A DNA stretch of 49,728 nucleotides, from positions 1 through 49,728 of the IMG/VR virus record IMGVR_UViG_3300031228_000008, one strand, 5' to 3'. This DNA comes from a virus. Its lineage: Duplodnaviria; Caudoviricetes. Position 1 is the stretch's first letter. Every line of letters starts with the position of its first letter. Positions 3,194-23,707 of this stretch are shown here, in pieces. The position numbers and the translations under genes were made by a program. The notes under the pieces were generated by a model. That model was not told the DNA's origin. It saw only the letters and a list, made by a program, of their open reading frames with translations, and made no database searches.

Positions 3194-4525
3194 CTATCCG
3201 CCCCCCTTGAAGGTCTCCTCCAGGAGGCCTCCAGGTCCGCGCATGACGGCCTCGCCACCATCGGCGTCGACCAGATAGATCGGTTCCCCGGCGGTCACGG
3301 TGAAGTCTGTTCCGAACAGGACCGTGTGTGCGCCGGTCGTCGAGTCCACCAGTACCGCCTGCCACCGGACCGCCATCGAGCCGCCGGTGTCGACGATCCG
3401 AAGTCGGCCGTACCGACCACGCCCGCCGGAGGGTCCGGCATTCCATCCGACTCCCCGGTAGTTCGACCCCCTATCGAGGGACGCCCCCTGGAATACGTGG
3501 ATGCGCCCGGAGCCTCCGACTCCGGCAGGGTCGGCGTTCAGCTTGTAGGCGCATGAGTGCATGTCCCCGGACAGGATGATGACCTGGGGGACGTTCTCGT
3601 CCGCCATGAACTGGGCGATCTCGGCCCTCTCGGTGGAGAACTCCCCCCAATGGTCGAGGTCTCCCCCGAGGCTAGTTTCAACCCCAGTTTCGGCGGGCCA
3701 GACCTGGGTGTTCAACCAGACGATCATCTTGTACCCGGCATCGCGGGCCGTGGTGAGTTGGTTCTTGAACCAAGCCTTCTGGGTCGCCCCCATCATCGTC
3801 TTCGAGGCGTCATCCGTGTCCTCATTGGGGGACCGGAAGGATCGGAGGTCGGTGGCGATGACCCATACGCGTCCGAGGGGGAAGGCTTGCCAGATTCCGG
3901 TGGTCTCGGGCAGAGACAGATGGGGGACCATCTTGCGATACGCGCTGTTTGCAACCGCGACCGTGACGTCCTCCCCGTCCGAGTTGTCGGGGCCGAAGTC
4001 GTGGTCGTCCCAGAGGTAGACCCAGGGCATGGATCGGGACATGGCGGCCATCTTGGCCGACGCCATGTTGCCCTCGTACCCGGCGACGAACAAGGCTTCG
4101 TTGGCGGTCGAGATGTCGCGGTATTGGAGGTCCCCAAGGTGGGCGAAGACGTCGGGGTTGTGGACCCGGATGTTGTCCCAGATCGCGTGAGTCGACCCTT
4201 CGTCGTTGCATGACCCATGATCGAGGACGACAGAGGTCGGTTCCAGCGGGGTTGGGAGCGTGCGGAAGGTCCCGGTCACTCCAGAGTCCAAGACGGAGTC
4301 GATCTCGACCTGGCACCAGTATCGCTTCCGGGCGTCGAGGCCGGAGATCGACAGGCGGACGTAGTCGTCCGCGTCGGGACTGGCGGCGTCGGAGAAGACG
4401 GGGGACGCCATGTCAATCCGGTCGGACACGGCCAGGCGACAGGAGGTCGCGGTGTCGGACAGGGCGGCCACGACCGAGACGCCCGAGGGGGCGGGGCCTC
4501 CGATCCAGACCCAGGAGACGGCCAC
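3194..4525 (-). CDS. PhoD-like (alkaline phosphatase D) metallophosphoesterase with N-terminal Fn3-like domain
   Basis: Motifs GSC, HLGDLQY.D, WDDHD, DLRSFRS, MMGATQKAW, ILSGDMH. Confidence 0.88.
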   Translation of the reverse strand: MAVSWVWIGGPAPSGVSVVAALSDTATSCRLAVSDRIDMASPVFSDAASPDADDYVRLSISGLDARKRYWCQVEIDSVLDSGVTGTFRTLPTPLEPTSVVLDHGSCNDEGSTHAIWDNIRVHNPDVFAHLGDLQYRDISTANEALFVAGYEGNMASAKMAAMSRSMPWVYLWDDHDFGPDNSDGEDVTVAVANSAYRKMVPHLSLPETTGIWQAFPLGRVWVIATDLRSFRSPNEDTDDASKTMMGATQKAWFKNQLTTARDAGYKMIVWLNTQVWPAETGVETSLGGDLDHWGEFSTERAEIAQFMADENVPQVIILSGDMHSCAYKLNADPAGVGGSGRIHVFQGASLDRGSNYRGVGWNAGPSGGRGRYGRLRIVDTGGSMAVRWQAVLVDSTTGAHTVLFGTDFTVTAGEPIYLVDADGGEAVMRGPGGLLEETFKGGG

Positions 4526-9717: not shown

Positions 9718-9927
9718 CTACGGCGGGGGACGCTTCGGGACCCGGACTCCACGGTGGCGTCCGAAGATCGCGAGGGCGTCCTGGATGGTTCCCTTCTTCT
9801 TGATGAGGCCGTGGGCCTTCAAGGCGTGGATGATCTGGGCTGGGGAGGACTCCCAGAACTCCGCGATGGGGCGGCCGGCGGAGATCCAGGAGGCCAACCA
9901 GTTCGACCAGGGGAGCCGGTGGTCTAC
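9718..9927 (-). CDS. Tail assembly chaperone extension (gpT-like), -1 frame, no clear own start
   Basis: LPWSNW...IAEFWESSPAQI between the chaperone and tape measure genes. Confidence 0.6.
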   Translation of the reverse strand, partial: VDHRLPWSNWLASWISAGRPIAEFWESSPAQIIHALKAHGLIKKKGTIQDALAIFGRHRGVRVPKRPPP

Positions 9928-10520
9928 TCCTCGTCCTCGTCCATCATCTCGTCCAACTGGGACGCCAGGGAGGCGCGGTGTGTGGCGACGGCGACGGCGG
10001 CCTTGTGGAGCATCTTGGCCGCCTCCGTAGGGTCCACGCCCTGGGAGATCGACCAGGCCACCCCTACGGCGTTGTTGTAGTCGAGGAGCTTGTCCGGGAT
10101 CATCGCCAGGCCCATCGACTGTTCGTCCGCATCGAGGGCGATCGCGAGGACCCGGCGGATCGTGGCGTTCTGCTTCACGTCGAGGGCCTTCTGGAAGGCC
10201 TCGGTCCCGTAGTAGGTGCGGGACTCCCGGACCTCGCCCTCCTCGGTCTGGATCACCTGGTCGGCCACGAGGCCGTCGAAGGCCTCCTCGATCTCCGCGA
10301 TGTGGTTGGCGTTGAACCGGAGATGGACCTTCCGCGTCGGCGGGTTCCAGTCCTCCTCGTCGTCGAGGTCGTCGGGCGGTTCGGGGAGCGTGCCGTCCTG
10401 GAGTCGGTACAGGGTGACCGGGACGCCGCGGTTGCGGAGGATGTAGGGCGGGACGAAGTCGGGGTTGGGGGGCGAGGCGGGAGGCGCGGCCTCGACCTCG
10501 GGGGCTTCTTCTTCGGACAC
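9924..10520 (-). CDS. Tail assembly chaperone (gpG-like)
   Basis: Lies between major tail and tape measure genes; LRFNANHIAEIEEAF; CAGGAG RBS. Confidence 0.7.
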   Translation of the reverse strand: MSEEEAPEVEAAPPASPPNPDFVPPYILRNRGVPVTLYRLQDGTLPEPPDDLDDEEDWNPPTRKVHLRFNANHIAEIEEAFDGLVADQVIQTEEGEVRESRTYYGTEAFQKALDVKQNATIRRVLAIALDADEQSMGLAMIPDKLLDYNNAVGVAWSISQGVDPTEAAKMLHKAAVAVATHRASLASQLDEMMDEDEE

Positions 10521-13440: not shown

Positions 13441-14580
13441 CTAGGAGGAGGCCAGGAGATCGAGGTACAGGTCCCGCCACCGATGCGCGCCCTGGCGAAT
13501 GTCGAGGGCCTTCACGGCCCGGAGGTTCGAGGCCGCCTCCACGTACCACTCCTCACGGTCCACGAGAAGGTCGAGGGCCTTGGCCCAGTCTCGGGGCCGG
13601 CGGGCGGTCACCCCGATCCCGTAGTCCTCCTGGAGCTTCCGGTACTCGGGGAGATCCTGGGCGACGAACGGGACCCCGGCGGCGGCGTACTCGATCCCCT
13701 TGACCCACGACTTGGACCGGTTGAAGGCCACGTCCCGGAGGGGGACCATGCCGACGTCGAGGGGACGGAACAGGGCGGGGTAGTCGTCGATCGGGGCGAT
13801 GGGGTTCGAGTGGGTGGCCACTCCCTCGTCCAGGCCGACCGACTCGACGAAGGTGGGCGCGCCCTCGATCTCCCCTCCGTGGTACCAGATGGTCTCGGGG
13901 TGTCGGCGCGCCCACGGCCCCAGGACTCCCCGGAGGGTCTCCAGATCCCCCGACCGCCAGGGCGTGGCCCCGACCCATCCGACCACGGGGCAGAGTTGCC
14001 GGCCTAGCTCCAGGTGCTCCAGGCTGATCGCCTCGAAGGCCTTGGTATCGACGTGGTTGGGGAGGACCCAGATCGGGCACTTCACCCCCTGTTGACGAAG
14101 GGCGTCTTCGAGGGCCGGCGTAGAGACGGTCACGGCGGACGCTTCCCGGATTCCCCGGATGTACCACTCCCGGTTCTCGATCGGGTTGACCTGGGGGTCC
14201 GTGACCTGGGCGGCCCGGTTCTTCGGGTCCAAGGCCCAGAAGTGGTCGTCCACGTCCTGGACCACGACCTGGCCGGCGGCCTTCGCCACCCGGGTCTCCT
14301 CGACGATGGAGGCGAACATCCAGCGTTGGAGGACGATGAGGTCCGGGACTTGGATGGTGGCCTCGCCTTCGGGGTGGTCGGGCCACGACCGGACCCCGAA
14401 GACCCCGGCGGTCTGGTCGAAGACCAGGGTCCCCTCGAAGACCTCGAAGGCGTCCAGGATGTGGCGGCCCGGGAGGCCCAGGCGGTACCACCCCGCGCCA
14501 CCCAGGGAGGGCTTCTCGGTGGCGAAGCTCCAGTCCGACGTGGCCAGTCCGATCTTCACTCGAACCGTTCCTCGCGCCAC
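13441..14580 (-). CDS. Glycosyltransferase (GT-B, GT4-like)
   Basis: LIVLQR, DVDD, VTVSTPAL, LPN, VGWVG, DVGMVPL...FNRSKSWVKGIEYAAAGVP. Confidence 0.88.
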   Translation of the reverse strand: MARGTVRVKIGLATSDWSFATEKPSLGGAGWYRLGLPGRHILDAFEVFEGTLVFDQTAGVFGVRSWPDHPEGEATIQVPDLIVLQRWMFASIVEETRVAKAAGQVVVQDVDDHFWALDPKNRAAQVTDPQVNPIENREWYIRGIREASAVTVSTPALEDALRQQGVKCPIWVLPNHVDTKAFEAISLEHLELGRQLCPVVGWVGATPWRSGDLETLRGVLGPWARRHPETIWYHGGEIEGAPTFVESVGLDEGVATHSNPIAPIDDYPALFRPLDVGMVPLRDVAFNRSKSWVKGIEYAAAGVPFVAQDLPEYRKLQEDYGIGVTARRPRDWAKALDLLVDREEWYVEAASNLRAVKALDIRQGAHRWRDLYLDLLASS

Positions 14581-17999: not shown

Positions 18000-19319
18000 T
18001 CAGGCTTCGGCGTCCGCCATCATCGCGACCAGGTCCGCATCCGAGACCGGGACCAGATCGTCCTCGTCCTCGTCGTCCGTCCCGGGATCGGGGTCCGGGA
18101 CCGATCCAGTGGAGGGGTCCGTGGAGGCCGACCCCGGGACGGTGACGGTCTTGGTCTCGCCCTGGCCCTTCGGGACGATCTCACGGGCCACCACGGCGGT
18201 CTTCTCGCCCTCGGACTCCTCCTCCTTGGCGGCGGCCGCCAGGACCTTCGAGATGGCCTCCTGGGCCGCCTGGAGCTTCGAGGCGTTGGCGGCGGACAGG
18301 ACCGCCCCCTTCTTCGTGTCGAGGGACGCCAGGATCTCCTGGGCGTCCTTGAAGTCCATGTCCCCGAGGTCGGCGGACGCGGTCTCCGGCGCGGTCGGCG
18401 TCGACCCGGCAGGCGCGACCGTCGCTTGGATGTCGACCTCCTGGGCATCCCCGAGGAGAACCCCGCCATCGTCGTCGATCGTGTAGGGGAACTGGTACGT
18501 CGTGGTCTGCTTCTCGCCGGAGTAGACCCGGATCGTTGCCACCACGGAGGAGTCGAAGGTCCCCTCGACCGAGACCCACCAGTCATTCTCGGGACCGACC
18601 TCCCCGTAGACCTCGACGGCCCAGGCGCGCACGGCCCCACGGACCGCCTCCTGGGTCTCCTCGAAGCTCCCAGACAGGGCCGGCAGGGACTTGGTCTCCC
18701 CGGCCTCGCCGGCCACGGACTCGAACAGTGTCTCGATCGTCTTGGCCTTGGCCTCGTCGAGGTCGAGGCGGTCGAGGGTCGAACGGATGAGGGACTTGGC
18801 GGACATGGTGCGGGCCTCCTGGTTCATGCCGAACGTCGTGGGTGATCCTTCCCAGACGAAAATCTTGGTCAGTAGCCGGCGGCCATCCGGTAGGTTCTTG
18901 AAGCCGTCCATGGGCGTCTCGTAGCCGATGCTCCACCCCAGGTCCTCGTGGAAGACGACCTTCCGGTAGGCCTTGAACGACTCGGGGTCTTCGAGGTCGA
19001 AGGCCACCTTGAACTGGAGCGCGCCCAGGCCCTTCGCGATGAGGTCCGCCGGGAGGCGGGGGTCACCCGGTGCAAGCTCCTCGTACTCCAGGACCTTGCC
19101 CACCAGGGTCTTCAAGTCGTGGGACCAGACGACCTTGGGGTTCCGCTTGAACTGGAACGCGCCCGGGGCGATGATGTCGCCTCCGTCGTCCGTGTTCCCG
19201 GTCACCGCGACGAGGGCGATGACCGTTCCCGGCTCATCCTCGACGACGGTGGCGGCGAGGCCGTCGAAGGCCTTGAACTCCAGGACGGGAGCTTCCTTGG
19301 TCGTCGTCGCTACTGGCAC
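18000..19319 (-). CDS. HK97-family prohead protease with long C-terminal extension
   Basis: GNTDDGGDIIAPGAF, WSHD, WSIGY, WEGSPTTFGMN; GAVLSAAN motif in the extension. Confidence 0.9.
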   Translation of the reverse strand: MPVATTTKEAPVLEFKAFDGLAATVVEDEPGTVIALVAVTGNTDDGGDIIAPGAFQFKRNPKVVWSHDLKTLVGKVLEYEELAPGDPRLPADLIAKGLGALQFKVAFDLEDPESFKAYRKVVFHEDLGWSIGYETPMDGFKNLPDGRRLLTKIFVWEGSPTTFGMNQEARTMSAKSLIRSTLDRLDLDEAKAKTIETLFESVAGEAGETKSLPALSGSFEETQEAVRGAVRAWAVEVYGEVGPENDWWVSVEGTFDSSVVATIRVYSGEKQTTTYQFPYTIDDDGGVLLGDAQEVDIQATVAPAGSTPTAPETASADLGDMDFKDAQEILASLDTKKGAVLSAANASKLQAAQEAISKVLAAAAKEEESEGEKTAVVAREIVPKGQGETKTVTVPGSASTDPSTGSVPDPDPGTDDEDEDDLVPVSDADLVAMMADAEA

Positions 19320-19427
19320 GGGATCGCCTCCGGTCGTGAAGGGTGAGGGGTTGGGGCTTAGTCCACTTCCGTCCCATGTAGGAGTCCGTGACGGACTTCT
19401 TGGGACCGCGGAGCCTGGCCATCGGGG

Positions 19428-19625
19428 TCAGGGTACCGGTCCGGGGTCATCGGGGTCCGTGACCTCGACGAGGCCCGGGTGGGGATCTCCGTGGGCCATG
19501 GCCAGGTAGGCGGACGCGTGGTACTCGGGGAGGCCGGTCAGTTCCATGATGATCTCCAGGGCCTCATCGTCGTCGAGGTCCGTGATCGGGATGGATTCGT
19601 CGTCGAGGTCATCCGGGGTTGGCAT
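19428..19625 (-). CDS. Small acidic protein; candidate immunity protein for the MuF C-terminal domain
   Basis: AGGAG RBS 12 nt after the MuF stop; 65 aa, Asp/Glu-rich. Confidence 0.55.
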   Translation of the reverse strand: MPTPDDLDDESIPITDLDDDEALEIIMELTGLPEYHASAYLAMAHGDPHPGLVEVTDPDDPGPVP

Positions 19626-19637
19626 GGGTGGCGTCTC

Positions 19638-21332
19638 CTACTCGATGAGGCCGGCGGTCTTGAAGACCTTGCGGAAGGCCTTGGCGATGGGTGCGAAGTC
19701 GTCGTCCGCCCACTGGACGGGGTACTGGGGGGAGACCTCCCCGATGAAGTTGGCGAAGTCCTTTGCGAGGGCGGCGTTCCCGGACTCCATGGTGATCCAC
19801 TGGTGGTAGCTCCGGGCGAAGACCTCGCGTGGGTCGAGGAGGTACTTGACGAAGTCGTAGTCGATGCGGATGTTCACGACCCGGCCATCCGGGAGGACCT
19901 TGGTCGGGATCTGGGCGTTCTTCCCGGTGAGAGATCGGAGGGTCGTGATCGCGTCGGACTGGTCGACGGCGTCCCACCACTCCTTCAAGATCGCATCCGG
20001 GACCCCACGGGCCGCCTCCTCGGACGAGAACGCGCCGGCCTTCCCGAAGTCCTGGTGGTCGAAGTAGTGGCCGAACTCGTGGGCGAAGACCCCGCCCTGT
20101 TGGTTGCCGGCGGAGGAGACGTTGAGGTCGACAGAGTCCCCCTTGTGGGTGTACCGGTACGCGCCCAACTGCTTCTGGCCCGAGGTCTGCTGGATCGGTA
20201 TGGAGGGCATACCGGTCGGGGACGAGTGGATCTTGTCTATCTCCGCCTTGGCGTTGGCCACGCCCTTCTGGACCTTGGTCCCCGGTCCGATGGCGTCACC
20301 CCCGGTTGTCTCGTACTGGCGGGTCGTCCGGTTCCACTTCTGCTTCACGGGCTTCGTGACGCGGTCGGGGAGATGTTGGGTGGCCGTGGCCCGGTCCGGC
20401 CCCTTCCTGGGTCGTAGCGGGGCGTTGGGGACGTCTGGGGCGGCCTCGGTGGGGACGGGGGTGATCTCGTCGGGGAGGTCGGGGGTCTCGGCGTCATCGA
20501 CGACCCTCTCGTAGAGCATCGTGCATCGGCAGTTGACGACCTCCGCCGCGCCACCGGTCGGGTCCCCGGGGTAGTCCATCCGCGACGCGCCCACGGAGAA
20601 CTTCTCGTCCAGGCCCACGGTCTGGCCGTCCGCCATGACGTGGGACGACCTGGTCCGATGGTCGACGGCGGCCAACCACTTCTTCTTCCCGACCACGCCG
20701 GAGGCCTTGGCCCCCCGGAAGCTCCCAGCGTTGGCCGCGCCGATCGTCTCGGTCCGGGCGATGGTGCGCGCCCGGTAGCCCTTGGCCTGGGCGAAGACCC
20801 CGCCGATCCGCTTGGCGATCCCGTCGATGGACTCCCCGGCGATCTCTCCGTCCGCTATCGCCACCTGGACCTTCAACCAGGTCGACTCGACGGTCCCACG
20901 GAGGCGGTCGGATCGGTGGAGGAGGTCGGAGGTAACTTCCGGGTCCTGGAGGTTCCAGGAGACCCCGAGGCCCTGGGAGGTCTCCTCCCCGAAGGCCTCG
21001 TAGACGTTCGTGATCGTGGGCAGGACGCCCTCGACGAAGGCGTCCGCCTCCTTGACCGGGTCGAAGACGCGGCGGGGGTCGATGGCCTTCTTCTCCATCG
21101 TCGGGTCCCAGGTGTCCCCGTAGTCCCAATGCCGGGTCCCCTTGCGCGTACCGGCGGACTGGAGCTTGGCCAGGGTCTTCGCCTCCTGGGCGGCCATGGC
21201 CTTCTTCACGGCCCGGAAGACCTCGACCTCGAAGCGGTCCAGCTTCGCCCCGGCGGCCTTGCGGGCGTGGCGGAACGGGTCCCGATCCGACCCGGGCTTA
21301 GGCCCCCCGTTGGGGGTGGTAACGAAAGGGGG
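19638..21332 (-). CDS. MuF (SPP1 gp7-like) minor head protein with C-terminal HExxH metallopeptidase-like domain; frame open from 21332, first GTG at 21209
   Basis: RARTIARTE, KKWLAAVDHRTRSSH, YPGDP...VVNCRC; FAHEFGH...EVFARSY. Confidence 0.9.
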   Translation of the reverse strand, partial: PPFVTTPNGGPKPGSDRDPFRHARKAAGAKLDRFEVEVFRAVKKAMAAQEAKTLAKLQSAGTRKGTRHWDYGDTWDPTMEKKAIDPRRVFDPVKEADAFVEGVLPTITNVYEAFGEETSQGLGVSWNLQDPEVTSDLLHRSDRLRGTVESTWLKVQVAIADGEIAGESIDGIAKRIGGVFAQAKGYRARTIARTETIGAANAGSFRGAKASGVVGKKKWLAAVDHRTRSSHVMADGQTVGLDEKFSVGASRMDYPGDPTGGAAEVVNCRCTMLYERVVDDAETPDLPDEITPVPTEAAPDVPNAPLRPRKGPDRATATQHLPDRVTKPVKQKWNRTTRQYETTGGDAIGPGTKVQKGVANAKAEIDKIHSSPTGMPSIPIQQTSGQKQLGAYRYTHKGDSVDLNVSSAGNQQGGVFAHEFGHYFDHQDFGKAGAFSSEEAARGVPDAILKEWWDAVDQSDAITTLRSLTGKNAQIPTKVLPDGRVVNIRIDYDFVKYLLDPREVFARSYHQWITMESGNAALAKDFANFIGEVSPQYPVQWADDDFAPIAKAFRKVFKTAGLIE

Positions 21333-22680
21333 TCACCACCCCTTCCTTCTTCTCCAGGGCTTCGAGGGCCGCCTTCGCGCCGGCCTCCGCCGCGGCCTGG
21401 ACCATCGAGATCGGGGCCGTGTTCTGGCCGTCGATGGCGTAGGGGACCTCACCCATGGGACGCCAGTAGGCGCGGGCCTCGTCGGACCCCACGGGATCGC
21501 GACCGGTCTCCTCCAGGTAGGAGTCCAGGGTCCGGGTCCCCTTCGTGACCTCGTCCCGCATCTCCTCGCGGCGGGCCTTCTCGGCGCGCTGGAGAACCTC
21601 CACGCCGGACAGGTCGAAGCCGGTGAAGGTGTCCTCCGCCCCATCGAGTTCGTCGAGGCCGGCTCCGAGGAGGGCCAGGTGGCCCAACTCCTGGGCCTCC
21701 CAGAGGAGGGACCGTTCCGCTTCGGCGTTGTCGTAGGTCCGCTGGGAGGCGTTCCCGTAGGCCAGGGACTCGGGGACACCGAAGGCCCCGAGGATGTCGA
21801 CCTTCGTGTTCGCCAGGGCCTCGACGTACTGGGCGTCCCTCGGAGAGGTCGCGGTATCGACCCAGTCCAGGCCGTCCGCTTCGAGGATCGTGATACGACC
21901 GGCCCCGGACGTGCCGACGTTGAACCGGGCGTCCAGTTCCTCCTCGACCTCCTCGTCCATCTCGCCCTTCACGCCCACAATCCCGCCTGGCCGTCCGTCG
22001 TTCTGGAGGAACGTCCGGTTGTAGAGGCGGGCGAGGACGTCGATGTCGATGGGCAGGCCGGCGGCCTCCAGGGGCGTCATGCCGGCGAGAGGGTCGACGG
22101 GATGCGGGAGGCGAATCCAGGCGACCTCGGACGGGTCGAGGGTCTCCACGTTGCCCTGGCCGTGGTCGACCTCGAAGTGGTCGACGAGACGGATGGCCTC
22201 GCCCTTGGCCATGCCGGACGTGGCGAGGCGCGGGTTCGGGACCGGCGACGTCTTGCGCGGGTCGAGGAGGTACAGGTGACGGATCGCCCCACCCCGGTCC
22301 ATGATCTTCTGGATGAAGGCCCCCTTCCGCGAGAGAAGGACCTGGGCGGACAGGCGGTAGCGGAAGACGTAGGCGTTCTCGTCGGGGTTGGCCCGGTGGT
22401 TGAGGAGGCGGACGAGGTCGTGGTCCTCGATCGGTTGGCCCTTGTCGCGGTCGTCCTGGCGGACCACGGCGGGGAGGCGGGCCTGGGTGTCGGAGATGAC
22501 GTGGACCGCCCGGAAGACGGGTACCACCTTCTTCAACGCGTCCTTGATGACCCGGTCCAGGTCCCACGAGTCCTTGTAAGGGACGCCCACCTTCTGGGGA
22601 CCCAGAGCAGGGAAGTACGCGGACCGCGCGTCCTTGGTCTCCATGGACCGGCCGGACTTGATGTCGGACACGAACTTCAT
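21298..22680 (-). CDS. Portal protein (HK97 family)
   Basis: VFRAVHVISD..ARLP, LLNHRANP, GMTPLEAA, FLQNDGRPGG, ILGAFGVP, RTYDNAE. Confidence 0.95.
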   Translation of the reverse strand: MKFVSDIKSGRSMETKDARSAYFPALGPQKVGVPYKDSWDLDRVIKDALKKVVPVFRAVHVISDTQARLPAVVRQDDRDKGQPIEDHDLVRLLNHRANPDENAYVFRYRLSAQVLLSRKGAFIQKIMDRGGAIRHLYLLDPRKTSPVPNPRLATSGMAKGEAIRLVDHFEVDHGQGNVETLDPSEVAWIRLPHPVDPLAGMTPLEAAGLPIDIDVLARLYNRTFLQNDGRPGGIVGVKGEMDEEVEEELDARFNVGTSGAGRITILEADGLDWVDTATSPRDAQYVEALANTKVDILGAFGVPESLAYGNASQRTYDNAEAERSLLWEAQELGHLALLGAGLDELDGAEDTFTGFDLSGVEVLQRAEKARREEMRDEVTKGTRTLDSYLEETGRDPVGSDEARAYWRPMGEVPYAIDGQNTAPISMVQAAAEAGAKAALEALEKKEGVVTPFRYHPQRGA

Positions 22681-23069
22681 CGGTAGCTACCCCAGTTCAA
22701 GGCTTCGTCACGACGCCGGTTGTTCTCGTCTCCCGTGACCGGTTCCAGGTGCTCCGGGTGCGGTCGGACACAAAGGGAGTTCCGGCAGACGTGGTCGATC
22801 TCGTATCCGGCCGGGATGGGGGCAACGAAATGCTCCCAAGCCCACCGGTAGGCGTAGACGTTGTGGCCATCGCCGGACCAGAAGACGGGGTAGCCCTCCG
22901 GGGTCTTGGCCCCGGTCCAGATCCAACAGGTCTCGGTCTGGTCGACCTTCTCCATGAAGCGGTCGAGGGCGGGGCGACGACGGGCGTGGCCGTTCTTGAA
23001 CCGTCGAGGGCGACCCTTCCGGTCGCACGGTTCGATCATCGTTCCGCATCCGCACGCGCACGGCGTCAT
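22677..23069 (-). CDS. HNH endonuclease (free-standing homing type)
   Basis: CACGCG, CWIWTG, IDHVCRNSLCVRP..HLEPVT..EN. Confidence 0.88.
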   Translation of the reverse strand: MTPCACGCGTMIEPCDRKGRPRRFKNGHARRRPALDRFMEKVDQTETCWIWTGAKTPEGYPVFWSGDGHNVYAYRWAWEHFVAPIPAGYEIDHVCRNSLCVRPHPEHLEPVTGDENNRRRDEALNWGSYR

Positions 23070-23073
23070 CTAG

Positions 23074-23352
23074 CTACTCACTTCCCATGAGGTAGGCAAC
23101 AACCAGGGATGATCCTGCCAGGCCGGCGAGGCCGTACCCCACCGGATGGCCGATGGCGATGAGGGCGGCGGCCGGTCCGGCCACGGCCCAGAAGACGATG
23201 AGGGCGGCCAGGGCGACGATCGACGTCCAATGGAACCGGGGGGCCTGGTCGTCGGCCTCGACGGTCCGGAGCTTCTTCTTCGGCGGATGGATCGCGACGT
23301 CCACCATGTCCTCCATCCGGGGACGGGGACGGACTCGTGGAGTGGCGGCCAT
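23074..23352 (-). CDS. Membrane protein (2 TM), probably leaderless
   Basis: Hydrophobic C-terminal half; TAGCAT 8 nt before the ATG. Confidence 0.6.
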   Translation of the reverse strand: MAATPRVRPRPRMEDMVDVAIHPPKKKLRTVEADDQAPRFHWTSIVALAALIVFWAVAGPAAALIAIGHPVGYGLAGLAGSSLVVAYLMGSE

Positions 23353-23385
23353 GGCCTCGGATGCTACCTCCGGGCCTGGCGCGGT

Positions 23386-23450
23386 GGAGGGAGTGGACCG
23401 AAGCCCACCCCCTCCGGACATGGGCGAGACCCACCAGTCCAACCCATGTC
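23386..23450 (-). terminator. Tandem hairpins between the terminase and portal units
   Basis: GACAUGGG...CCCAUGUC and GGAGGGGGUGGGC-UUCG-GUCCACUCCCUCC. Confidence 0.55.
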
Positions 23451-23494
23451 GAGGGTTGACGGTAGACGCGGAACGACCCCCGTCCGAGGAGGGC

Positions 23495-23707
23495 CTACCG
23501 GTTGCGGCGTCGTGAGGCCTTCTGGAGTTTCCGCCTGGCCCTCCGCTTCGCCTGGAACGAGGCGTCCCTTTGGACGGTGCGCGACAGGAGGGCGACAGTC
23601 TCGGGCGTTCCGTGTATCTGGACCCACTCGTCTCGGGGGAAGCCTGGGGCCTTGGCCCTCGACTCGAACTCCGCGGCGGAGATCGTCTCTCCGGTGGGGA
23701 CGTGCAT
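23495..23707 (-). CDS. Hypothetical protein with basic C-terminus
   Basis: AGGAGG RBS; MHVPTGET... Confidence 0.6.
   Translation of the reverse strand: MHVPTGETISAAEFESRAKAPGFPRDEWVQIHGTPETVALLSRTVQRDASFQAKRRARRKLQKASRRRNR

What the first reader, a model, noticed from the sequence alone, without database searches (positions are those of the whole stretch)
21298..21350. Candidate programmed +1 frameshift (CCC-UUU-CGU in a hairpin loop) fusing portal to MuF-metallopeptidase
Seen: the portal ends ...GTG ACC CCC TTT CGT TAC CAC CCC CAA CGG GGG GCC TAA. The MuF frame is the +1 frame. It opens right after a TGA at 21335-21333, exactly at this site. It then runs 41 codons (PPFVTTPNGGPKPGSDRDPFRHARKAAGAKLDRFEVEVFRA), the later ones strongly GC3-rich, with no start codon, and the first GTG (21209) has no SD. 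TTT and CGT are uncommon codons in this genome. The site lies in the 8-nt loop of an 11-bp stem (GGGGUGGUGAC-CCCCUUUC-GUUACCACCCC, 21342-21313), and a purine run AAGGAAGGGG lies just upstream. Known: UUU-CGN is the +1 slip motif of influenza PA-X (UCC-UUU-CGU), an internal SD stimulates the prfB +1 shift, and in-frame portal-MuF fusion genes exist in some phages. Inference: a minority of portal subunits are made as a ~1013-aa portal-MuF-protease (452+561 aa), so recoding would set the dose of a virion-borne effector.
Basis: partly seen in the sequence, partly recalled or inferred. Interest (0 to 1): 0.88.

Follow-up and report, generated by a model that had tools for sequence, protein, structure and literature searches.

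The report
Forward frameshift joins portal to MuF
Near the end of this phage's portal gene, a CCC-UUU-CG site whose Pro-Phe-Arg reading is kept in most close relatives likely makes some ribosomes slip forward one base, so that part of the portal subunits would carry the MuF head protein and a predicted zinc protease as a tail.

Summary
The portal ends ACC CCC TTT CGT, and MuF continues in the +1 frame with no start for 41 codons. 28 of 30 close stand-alone portals end in VxxPFR, which makes an assembly error very unlikely. The one relative with DNA keeps CCC TTT CG and the +1 phase. TTT is 4 of 364 Phe codons here. The start-less leader is conserved and aligns with natural in-frame fusions; one matches the predicted 1013-aa product at 46% along its length.

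A separate clade keeps C_CCU_UU(A/G) at the same joint in 38 of 38 junctions, split or fused. This scan noted -1 portal-MuF shifts before on other DNA, including that clade; none of the notes I saw was +1. Eight paper searches found no portal frameshift.

The parts
21298..22680 (-). Portal gene, 460 aa (PF04860). Zero-frame product ends GVVTPFRYHPQRGA.
21322..21330 (-). Predicted +1 shift site CCC TTT CGT (portal codons 451-453). A slip CCC to CCU, UUU to UUC, or both gives the same junction EGVVTPF-VTTPNGG.
   Evidence: same site in L088; Pro-Phe-Arg in 28 of 30 relatives
21333..21342 (-). SD-like GGGGTGGTGA (Gly-Val-Val codons), including the TGA that closes the +1 frame upstream. Its core ends 5 nt before CCC and 8 nt before TTT, which is not the prfB spacing.
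   Evidence: -10.7 kcal/mol; -13.1 in L088; identical in L088; 3 nt for +1
21313..21342 (-). 11-bp stem enclosing the site. Present, but not shown to be functional.
21305..21316 (-). Small C-run/G-run hairpin 8 nt after TTT, with a counterpart in L088. No stronger than shuffles.
   Evidence: z 0.47 and -0.03 for the downstream regions
21210..21332 (-). Start-less +1-frame leader of 41 codons. Homologous to the linker of in-frame portal-MuF fusions, and forms the first half of a predicted helix (residues 21-62).
21207..21224 (-). Possible internal start GTG 21209 with GAGGT 10 nt upstream. The codon is GTA in L088.
20517..20873 (-). MuF domain (PF04233), residues 154-272 of the +1 frame
19638..20300 (-). 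C-terminal zincin-like domain with HEFGH (20081-20067) and conserved E503. Predicted metallopeptidase, with an LPD1-like lead.

Best explanation
The portal and MuF frames overlap at a conserved CCC-UUU-CG site that is likely a programmed +1 ribosomal frameshift: ribosomes that stay in frame would stop eight codons later and make the 460-aa portal, and those that slip would make a 1013-aa portal-MuF-peptidase. Shown: the site, the phase, the conservation, and the homology of the start-less leader to natural fusions. Inferred: tRNA-Phe re-pairs from UUU (wobble) to UUC, with or without tRNA-Pro moving from CCC to CCU. Also inferred: a pause from the SD-like GGGGUGGU upstream may help. Further inferred: the fused subunits co-assemble with bare portal, which would tether MuF and a zincin-like domain inside the head for delivery with the DNA. 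The shift rate is unknown, and some free MuF may also start at GTG 21209.
For: - The 30 closest stand-alone portals (49-90% identity) are 430-470 aa. 28 of 30 end in VxxPFR followed by a variable tail of 4-13 aa.
- L088 (portal 67% identical) has GTG ACC CCC TTT CGG, MuF in +1 after the same TGA, and no start at the GTG position.
- TTT is 4 of 364 Phe codons here and 2 of 43 in L088.
- Leader: 17 of 34 residues are identical to L088, 5 of them through synonymous changes, and the +2 frame (relative to the portal) has stops in both.
- The leader aligns ungapped from residue 6 with the in-frame linker of P0028 (44% over 295 aa).
- The predicted product aligns with natural fusions P0226 (46% over 1026 columns, peptidase domain included) and P0225 (50% over 737). 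Both keep Pro-Phe at the joint and sit in the same clade.
- Gene-caller starts of MuF relatives scatter over many positions.
- AlphaFold2 gives one helix over residues 21-62, across the GTG (block pLDDT 82-96; the helix's N-terminal half rests on few alignment rows).
- CCC_U is a known phage +1 site (SPP1 gp17.1*, PMC6316719), and UUU_Y is +1-prone in bacteria (PMC5009743).
- Control: none of 80 other MuF loci has CCCTTT at the joint, and many have a start codon right at the upstream stop.
Against: - No read, ribosome or peptide data.
- DNA of the site was seen in only 2 genomes; the rest is amino-acid inference, so TTT versus TTC is unknown for the other relatives.
- 2 of 30 relatives (P0026, P0027) lack the motif.
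- The 20-nt block identical between window and L088 is not exceptional: runs of 20, 27 and 29 nt occur in the portal body, and the chance that the five codons match is about 0.045.
- Leader differences are spread evenly over codon positions (11/13/12).
- Internal starts with SD-like sites exist in both genomes (-8.5 and -8.0).
- No stimulator passed a test. In PA-X, changing UCC to CCC or other codons lowers shifting by 40-70%.
- Many distant fused relatives show no shared slippery heptamer (46 loci), so a bare portal is not universally required.
Confidence: 0.74

Rival explanations
1. MuF is made only as a separate protein from GTG 21209 or ATG 21197. VVxPFR is a protein motif at the portal's end, and the leader is a decaying relic of an ancestral fusion.
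For: GAGGU SD at -8.5 before GTG 21209, -6.5 before ATG 21197, and -8.0 before an ATG in L088. Pro-Phe is also kept in two in-frame fusions. Separate muf genes after the portal are the usual layout (PMC5576092).
Against: The start position is not conserved (GTA in L088; scattered calls). The leader is conserved in window, L088, P0133 and P0136 across portals only about 60-67% identical. The rare TTT is used in both genomes. The GTG would cut a predicted helix in half.
Confidence: 0.12
2. The fusion is made, but by another slip: a -2 ribosomal shift of tRNA-Pro on the run of five C (giving VVTPPFV), or RNA-polymerase slippage on C5T3 that drops one base.
For: Both sequenced sites have C5T3, and the +1 frame opens exactly at CCC CCT TTC. 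-2 shifts (phage Mu) and loss of one C at T5C5 (Roseiflexus IS630) are known (PMC5009743).
Against: P0013 and P0016 have Arg before Pro (VVRPFR), which cannot give CCC two bases back. Tandem -2 would put tRNA-Phe on CCU. The sister family keeps only C3T3 or C4T3, in fixed codon phase with an SD at a fixed distance, which points to the ribosome.
Confidence: 0.11
3. A one-base assembly error or a recent mutation broke an ordinary in-frame fusion gene.
For: The break lies in a C run, most distant relatives are in-frame fusions, and no reads could be checked.
Against: 30 independently assembled relatives stop at the same place, 28 with the same motif. The window's own 90% cluster has members from other contigs with lengths 459-460. 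L088 has the same phase.
Confidence: 0.02

Closest known systems
SPP1 gp17.1/gp17.1* and Listeria phage PSA Cps/Tsh +1 frameshifts (PMC6316719 passages; PMC5009743 passages)
   Same: A +1 shift at CCC_U near the end of a phage structural gene adds a C-terminal extension to a fraction of subunits of an oligomer.
   Different: There CCC is rare and is followed by a stop or a pseudoknot. Here CCC is the commonest Pro codon (372 of 716), the next codons are sense (UUU CGN), the protein is the portal, and the extension is a whole 561-aa MuF-peptidase.
Influenza PA-X UCC_UUU_CGU and related UUU_CGN sites (PMC5009743 passages)
   Same: Conserved UUU_CGN in the zero frame with the product in +1, and no clear stimulator.
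   Different: Bacterial ribosome rather than eukaryotic; CCC instead of UCC upstream; an SD-like element is present.
In-frame portal-MuF fusion genes (Microbacterium EA3/EA5/EA8/EB, PMC7302621 passages; Streptomyces phage Gilgamesh gp46; phrog_2662)
   Same: Same domain order and homologous linker. phrog_2662 matches both the portal (profile 38-441) and the +1 frame (profile 489-709).
   Different: Encoded as one ORF, whereas here the two halves are out of frame.
SPP1 gp6-gp7 and MuF polymorphic toxins (PMC6316719, PMC5576092 passages)
   Same: MuF follows the portal, is portal-associated, and carries variable C-terminal domains: HEFGH peptidase-like here, zeta-toxin plus Peptidase_Mx in relatives.
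   Different: gp7 is a separate protein bound non-covalently at 1-2 copies per capsid. Here the link would be covalent and set by recoding.
E. coli prfB +1 and dnaX -1 frameshifts (PMC5009743 passages)
   Same: Internal SD-like element near a shift site. The sister family has a dnaX-like -1 cassette (SD 13 nt upstream, within the 9-14 nt range).
   Different: The window's site has no stop in the A site and its SD core is 5-8 nt away, not 3.

Membership tests
PA-X-type +1 site (UUU_CGN) | UUU followed by CGN in the zero frame, product in +1 | tested here: met
   TTT CGT in window, TTT CGG in L088; Phe-Arg in 28 of 30
PA-X-type +1 site (UUU_CGN) | UCC codon before UUU | tested here: not met
   CCC in both sequenced sites; Pro in 28 of 28 motif carriers
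PA-X-type +1 site (UUU_CGN) | Transframe product detected | not testable with these tools
   No reads or peptides available
prfB-type +1 site | SD 3 nt before the P-site codon | tested here: not met
   Core ends 5 nt before CCC and 8 nt before UUU; rule
prfB-type +1 site | Stop codon directly after the shift codon | tested here: not met
   Stop is 9 codons after TTT
SPP1/PSA-type CCC_U +1 site | CCC followed by U near the end of a structural gene | tested here: met
   CCC T at 21330-21327
SPP1/PSA-type CCC_U +1 site | CCC is a rare codon | tested here: not met
   372 of 716 Pro codons
SPP1/PSA-type CCC_U +1 site | Adjacent stop or 3' pseudoknot | tested here: inconclusive
   No adjacent stop; only weak hairpins; pseudoknots not modelled
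MuF polymorphic effector (Jamet 2017) | MuF domain directly after the portal gene | tested here: met
   PF04233, E 1.2e-14
MuF polymorphic effector (Jamet 2017) | Variable C-terminal domain among relatives | tested here: met
MuF polymorphic effector (Jamet 2017) | Toxicity and a cognate immunity gene (recalled as part of the definition) | not tested
   A small acidic ORF follows at 19637-19428; not examined
Zincin metallopeptidase | HExxH plus a downstream acidic residue | tested here: met
   H418-E419-x-x-H422 and E503 are 90% or more conserved in 19 sequences
Zincin metallopeptidase | Zincin fold | tested here: inconclusive
   Z 8.4 (rmsd 3.8, 143 aligned, lethal-factor catalytic domain), Z 8.1 (3.8, 146, PPEP-2), Z 7.0 (thermolysin); near the background level, whole model searched. 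No Foldseek hit at E 0.001.

The most novel reading that the evidence does not exclude
CCCUUU at the portal-MuF joint is a reversible phase switch. Read as CCC_UUU_C it shifts +1 into MuF (this clade). Read as C_CCU_UUN it shifts -1, either into MuF (split genes) or out of it to a stop (in-frame genes, as in 26 of 29 fused junctions of the sister family, and perhaps P0225 and P0226). Lineages flip between these states by single indels yet always keep both products, so a mixed portal ring with tethered effector subunits is what selection preserves, and a bacterial UUU_CGN site could shift at high rate.
Probability: 0.35. Interest if true: 0.86.

Novelty: new variant of a known kind. Interest (0 to 1): 0.72.

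Why it matters
Programmed frameshifts in tailed phages are described for tail chaperones, capsid and tail-tube proteins. I found none for the portal in the papers searched. If real, the DNA-packaging portal is a mixed ring in which some subunits carry a covalently tethered MuF with a swappable enzyme domain, which gives a direct way to set how many effector molecules a virion delivers. It would also supply a natural bacterial UUU_CGN/CCC_U +1 cassette that is easy to test in a reporter. And it means that gene callers truncate MuF in this whole clade.

Tried and rejected
Read mapping was not possible, so the indel question rests on relatives.

Searches for more DNA of the +1 clade:
- Single-protein scans of viral contigs found no relatives.
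- Alignment scans of viral, metagenome and genome contigs gave one clade member with DNA besides the window's own contig (L088).
- A DNA pattern scan of viral contigs gave 3 hits, none at a portal end by inspection.
- A MuF-alignment scan gave 80 loci, none of this clade.
- No cultured phage of the clade was found; the best portals are about 40% identical.

Stimulators and other mechanisms:
- Stem covariation from amino-acid pairs is not significant (19-26% of null triplets score as well), although Val/Tyr or Val/His at the inner pair (23 of 28) would allow pairing.
- A hop between matched CCC codons fits the window and L088 but not P0133, which has no Pro there, so I rejected it.
- A non-standard start after the SD-like element was rejected: the +1 codons there are CCC, CCT, TTC and GTT/GGT.
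- No shared XXXYYYZ heptamer was found in 46 other fused loci (strict pattern only).
- Pro-Phe in the last 25 residues occurs in only 3 of 36 short portals from the wider profile search, one of them a clade member, so the motif is clade-restricted.

Other negatives:
- No solved-structure homologue by sequence or Foldseek.
- No tRNA genes and no sigma-70-like promoter in 19000-23500. That scan flags a weak 5-pair terminator-like match at the site (5 found in the region against 2.0 +/- 1.8 in shuffles); not pursued.
Full report
Setting. The window is a whole 49,728-base contig, 68% G+C, with a siphovirus-type late operon on the minus strand: terminase, HNH, portal, MuF, prohead protease, capsid, neck, tail tube and tape measure. 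No tRNA genes were found. The closest cultured portals are from Gordonia, Streptomyces and Brevibacterium phages at about 40% identity, so a high-GC, probably actinobacterial host is an inference.

Observation. The portal (22680-21298) ends GTG GTG ACC CCC TTT CGT TAC CAC CCC CAA CGG GGG GCC TAA. The MuF frame is +1, opens after TGA 21335-21333, and has no start for 41 codons. Reading TTTC as one step gives 1013 aa. TTT is 4 of 364 Phe codons in 48 high-GC3 ORFs, and CCCTTTCG occurs once in the contig (the smaller gene set held some doubtful frames and is not relied on). Three details fail. CGT is 63 of 854 Arg codons. GTG 21209 has GAGGU 10 nt upstream at -8.5 kcal/mol, against medians of -7.4 for 32 putative starts and -3.1 for 82 internal ATG/GTG, using a recalled anti-SD sequence. 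The 11-bp stem is matched by 19 of 200 shuffles.

Not an assembly error. Of the best 120 listed of 491 portal homologues, the top 31 are 30 stand-alone proteins of 430-470 aa (49-90% identity) and one fusion, P0028. 28 of the 30 end in VxxPFR: Val at -3 in 28 of 28, Val at -2 in 27, then a tail of 4-13 residues that varies freely. P0026 and P0027 lack the motif. In the alignment of 31 sequences Pro, Phe and Arg are each 94% conserved, while the residues after them are 23-71%. No reads could be examined.

DNA and phase. Only one clade member came with DNA. L088 (portal 67% identical) has GGG GTG GTG ACC CCC TTT CGG, the same TGA, and MuF in +1. Its TTT is 2 of 43 Phe codons. The shared 20-nt block is not exceptional on its own: other runs of 20, 27 and 29 nt occur, and the chance of five identical codons is about 0.045. 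A third case is indirect. The same test also allowed one short 5-codon chance fit with P0016, and found no fit for four other MuF proteins.

The leader looks translated. Between the portal stop and the first start, 17 of 34 residues are identical in window and L088, 5 by synonymous change, though differences are even across codon positions (11/13/12). The GTG corresponds to GTA. The same DPFR-x-x-RKA stretch is in P0133 and, as DPLR, in P0136. It aligns without gaps from residue 6 to the linker of the in-frame fusion P0028. phrog_2662 matches the portal at profile 38-441 and the +1 frame at 489-709. A search for longer proteins gave two in-frame fusions near the clade. P0226 (990 aa) matches the predicted product at 46% over 1026 columns, including the HEFGH domain, with EGGPPFV opposite EGVVTPFV. 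P0225 matches at 50% over 737 with GVMPPFP. A maximum-likelihood tree of 43 portal cores places P0226 beside the PFR portals P0029 and P0031 (99) and P0225 next (99), inside a clade supported at 100. Called MuF starts scatter widely. AlphaFold2 predicts one helix over residues 21-62, across the GTG. As a control, none of 80 other MuF loci has CCCTTT at the joint, and many start at the upstream stop.

Mechanism. CCC_UUU_C allows +1 re-pairing of tRNA-Pro (CCC to CCU), of tRNA-Phe (UUU to UUC, a better pair by standard wobble rules), or both, with the same product. CCC_U is the +1 site of SPP1 gp17.1* (PMC6316719, passages) and of Listeria phage genes. UUU_Y is described as +1-prone in bacteria, and UCC_UUU_CGU is the PA-X site (PMC5009743, passages from the first 300,000 of 449,034 characters). 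A -2 shift does not fit the two VVRPFR relatives. No stimulator is shown. The conserved GGGGUGGUGA pairs well with the anti-SD (-10.7 and -13.1), but its core is 5 nt from CCC and 8 nt from UUU, not the 3 nt given for +1, so at most it is a pause element. The stem keeps 9 of 11 pairs in L088 without compensation, and the amino-acid pairing test is not significant. Downstream hairpins are at shuffle level. Internal initiation with an SD is possible in both genomes and may coexist with the shift.

Cargo. The C-terminal domain has H418-E419-x-x-H422 and E503 conserved, weak hits to Peptidase_M78 and LPD1 in relatives, LPD1-containing Atlas clusters (11-14% of members in the top rows), and zincin-like folds at Z 7-8.4, near background. 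Relatives swap it for zeta-toxin plus Peptidase_Mx domains. SPP1 gp7 binds the portal at 1-2 copies per capsid (PMC5576092, passages), and only about 25% of virions lacking it are infectious. Tethering and delivery here are inferred from this.

A second family with the same six bases. Loci whose portals are about 42% identical to the window's form a separate clade. All 38 distinct junctions (29 fused, 9 split) have C_CCT_TTA (35) or C_CCT_TTG (3) in portal phase. 34 of 38 have GGAGG or GGGGG exactly 13 nt upstream. TTA is only 135 of 1146 Leu codons in these genes. In the 9 split genes the -1 frame runs into MuF. In 26 of 29 fused genes it stops within 4 codons, against a background of 17% (related sequences, not independent). 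Split forms fall in three places among fused ones, with modest support. This suggests that both products are kept whichever frame MuF lies in. In contrast, 46 other fused loci show no shared strict heptamer.

Prior work. Eight answered paper searches gave no report of a portal frameshift; the library holds open-licence papers and preprints only. 'Portal' has 0 hits in the held part of PMC5009743 and in PRFect (PMC10885494; listing). 'Frameshift' has 0 hits in PMC5576092 and PMC5512222. PRFect's section 19 (read whole) speculates in general that genes fused in some genomes may be joined by frameshift in others, naming VIP2 and MuF. In-frame portal-MuF fusions are described in PMC7302621 (passages). 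PMC7911831 (passages) has only the tail-chaperone shift. No supplements were read. This scan's own unchecked notes hold 49 findings with the words frameshift, portal and MuF, of which one search showed 8; two searches showed a few more. All those shown are -1 or poly-A sites, one of them the C_CCU_UUA family. No look-alike of this locus was found, and two +1-worded look-ups found no note holding all the words.

Verdict. A likely programmed +1 frameshift fuses the portal to MuF-peptidase (0.74; recoding of some kind at this site about 0.85). It is a new variant of the known frameshift-extended structural protein. Interest 0.72.

Noticed in passing
L023:1910-1970, L028, L029, L030, L085, L097, L098, L147, L223 (split); L010, L037, L048, L050, L051 and 24 more (fused): Separate clade with a -1 cassette (GGAGG/GGGGG, 13 nt, C_CCU_UUA) at the portal-MuF joint, kept in both split and in-frame genes. 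In fused genes the -1 frame stops within 4 codons in 26 of 29.
   Followed up: yes
P0225, P0226 (proteins only): In-frame portal-MuF fusions inside the +1 clade that keep Pro-Pro-Phe at the joint, compatible with C_CCU_UUC as a -1 exit; DNA not available.
   Followed up: partly
window 19428-19637 (-): Small acidic ORF (about 65 aa from its Met) directly after the MuF-peptidase stop; candidate partner or immunity gene.
   Followed up: no
window 9718-10520 (-): Likely tail-chaperone pair: a 198-aa ORF ending GAG GAG TAG, with a gpT-like continuation in the -1 frame (to 9718) but no XXXYYYZ heptamer in the first ORF. The route into the second frame is unexplained.
   Followed up: partly
P0056, P0052, P0034 (proteins only): More distant stand-alone portals end near GPFW, DPFR and DPL, which could be further shift sites (UUU_U, UUU_CG, C_CCU_UU); no DNA.
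   Followed up: no
L312, portal-MuF overlap: Run of nine A at the point where the MuF frame opens in -1 phase, first start 65 codons later.
   Followed up: no
window 3194-4525 and 13441-14580 (-): PhoD-like phosphatase among the tail genes and a glycosyltransferase among the head-tail genes.
   Followed up: no
L088:4953-5579: In L088 the MuF ORF ends after 324 codons, and a second long frame with coding-like content overlaps its end, so the C-terminal domain may be broken or separately encoded.
   Followed up: no
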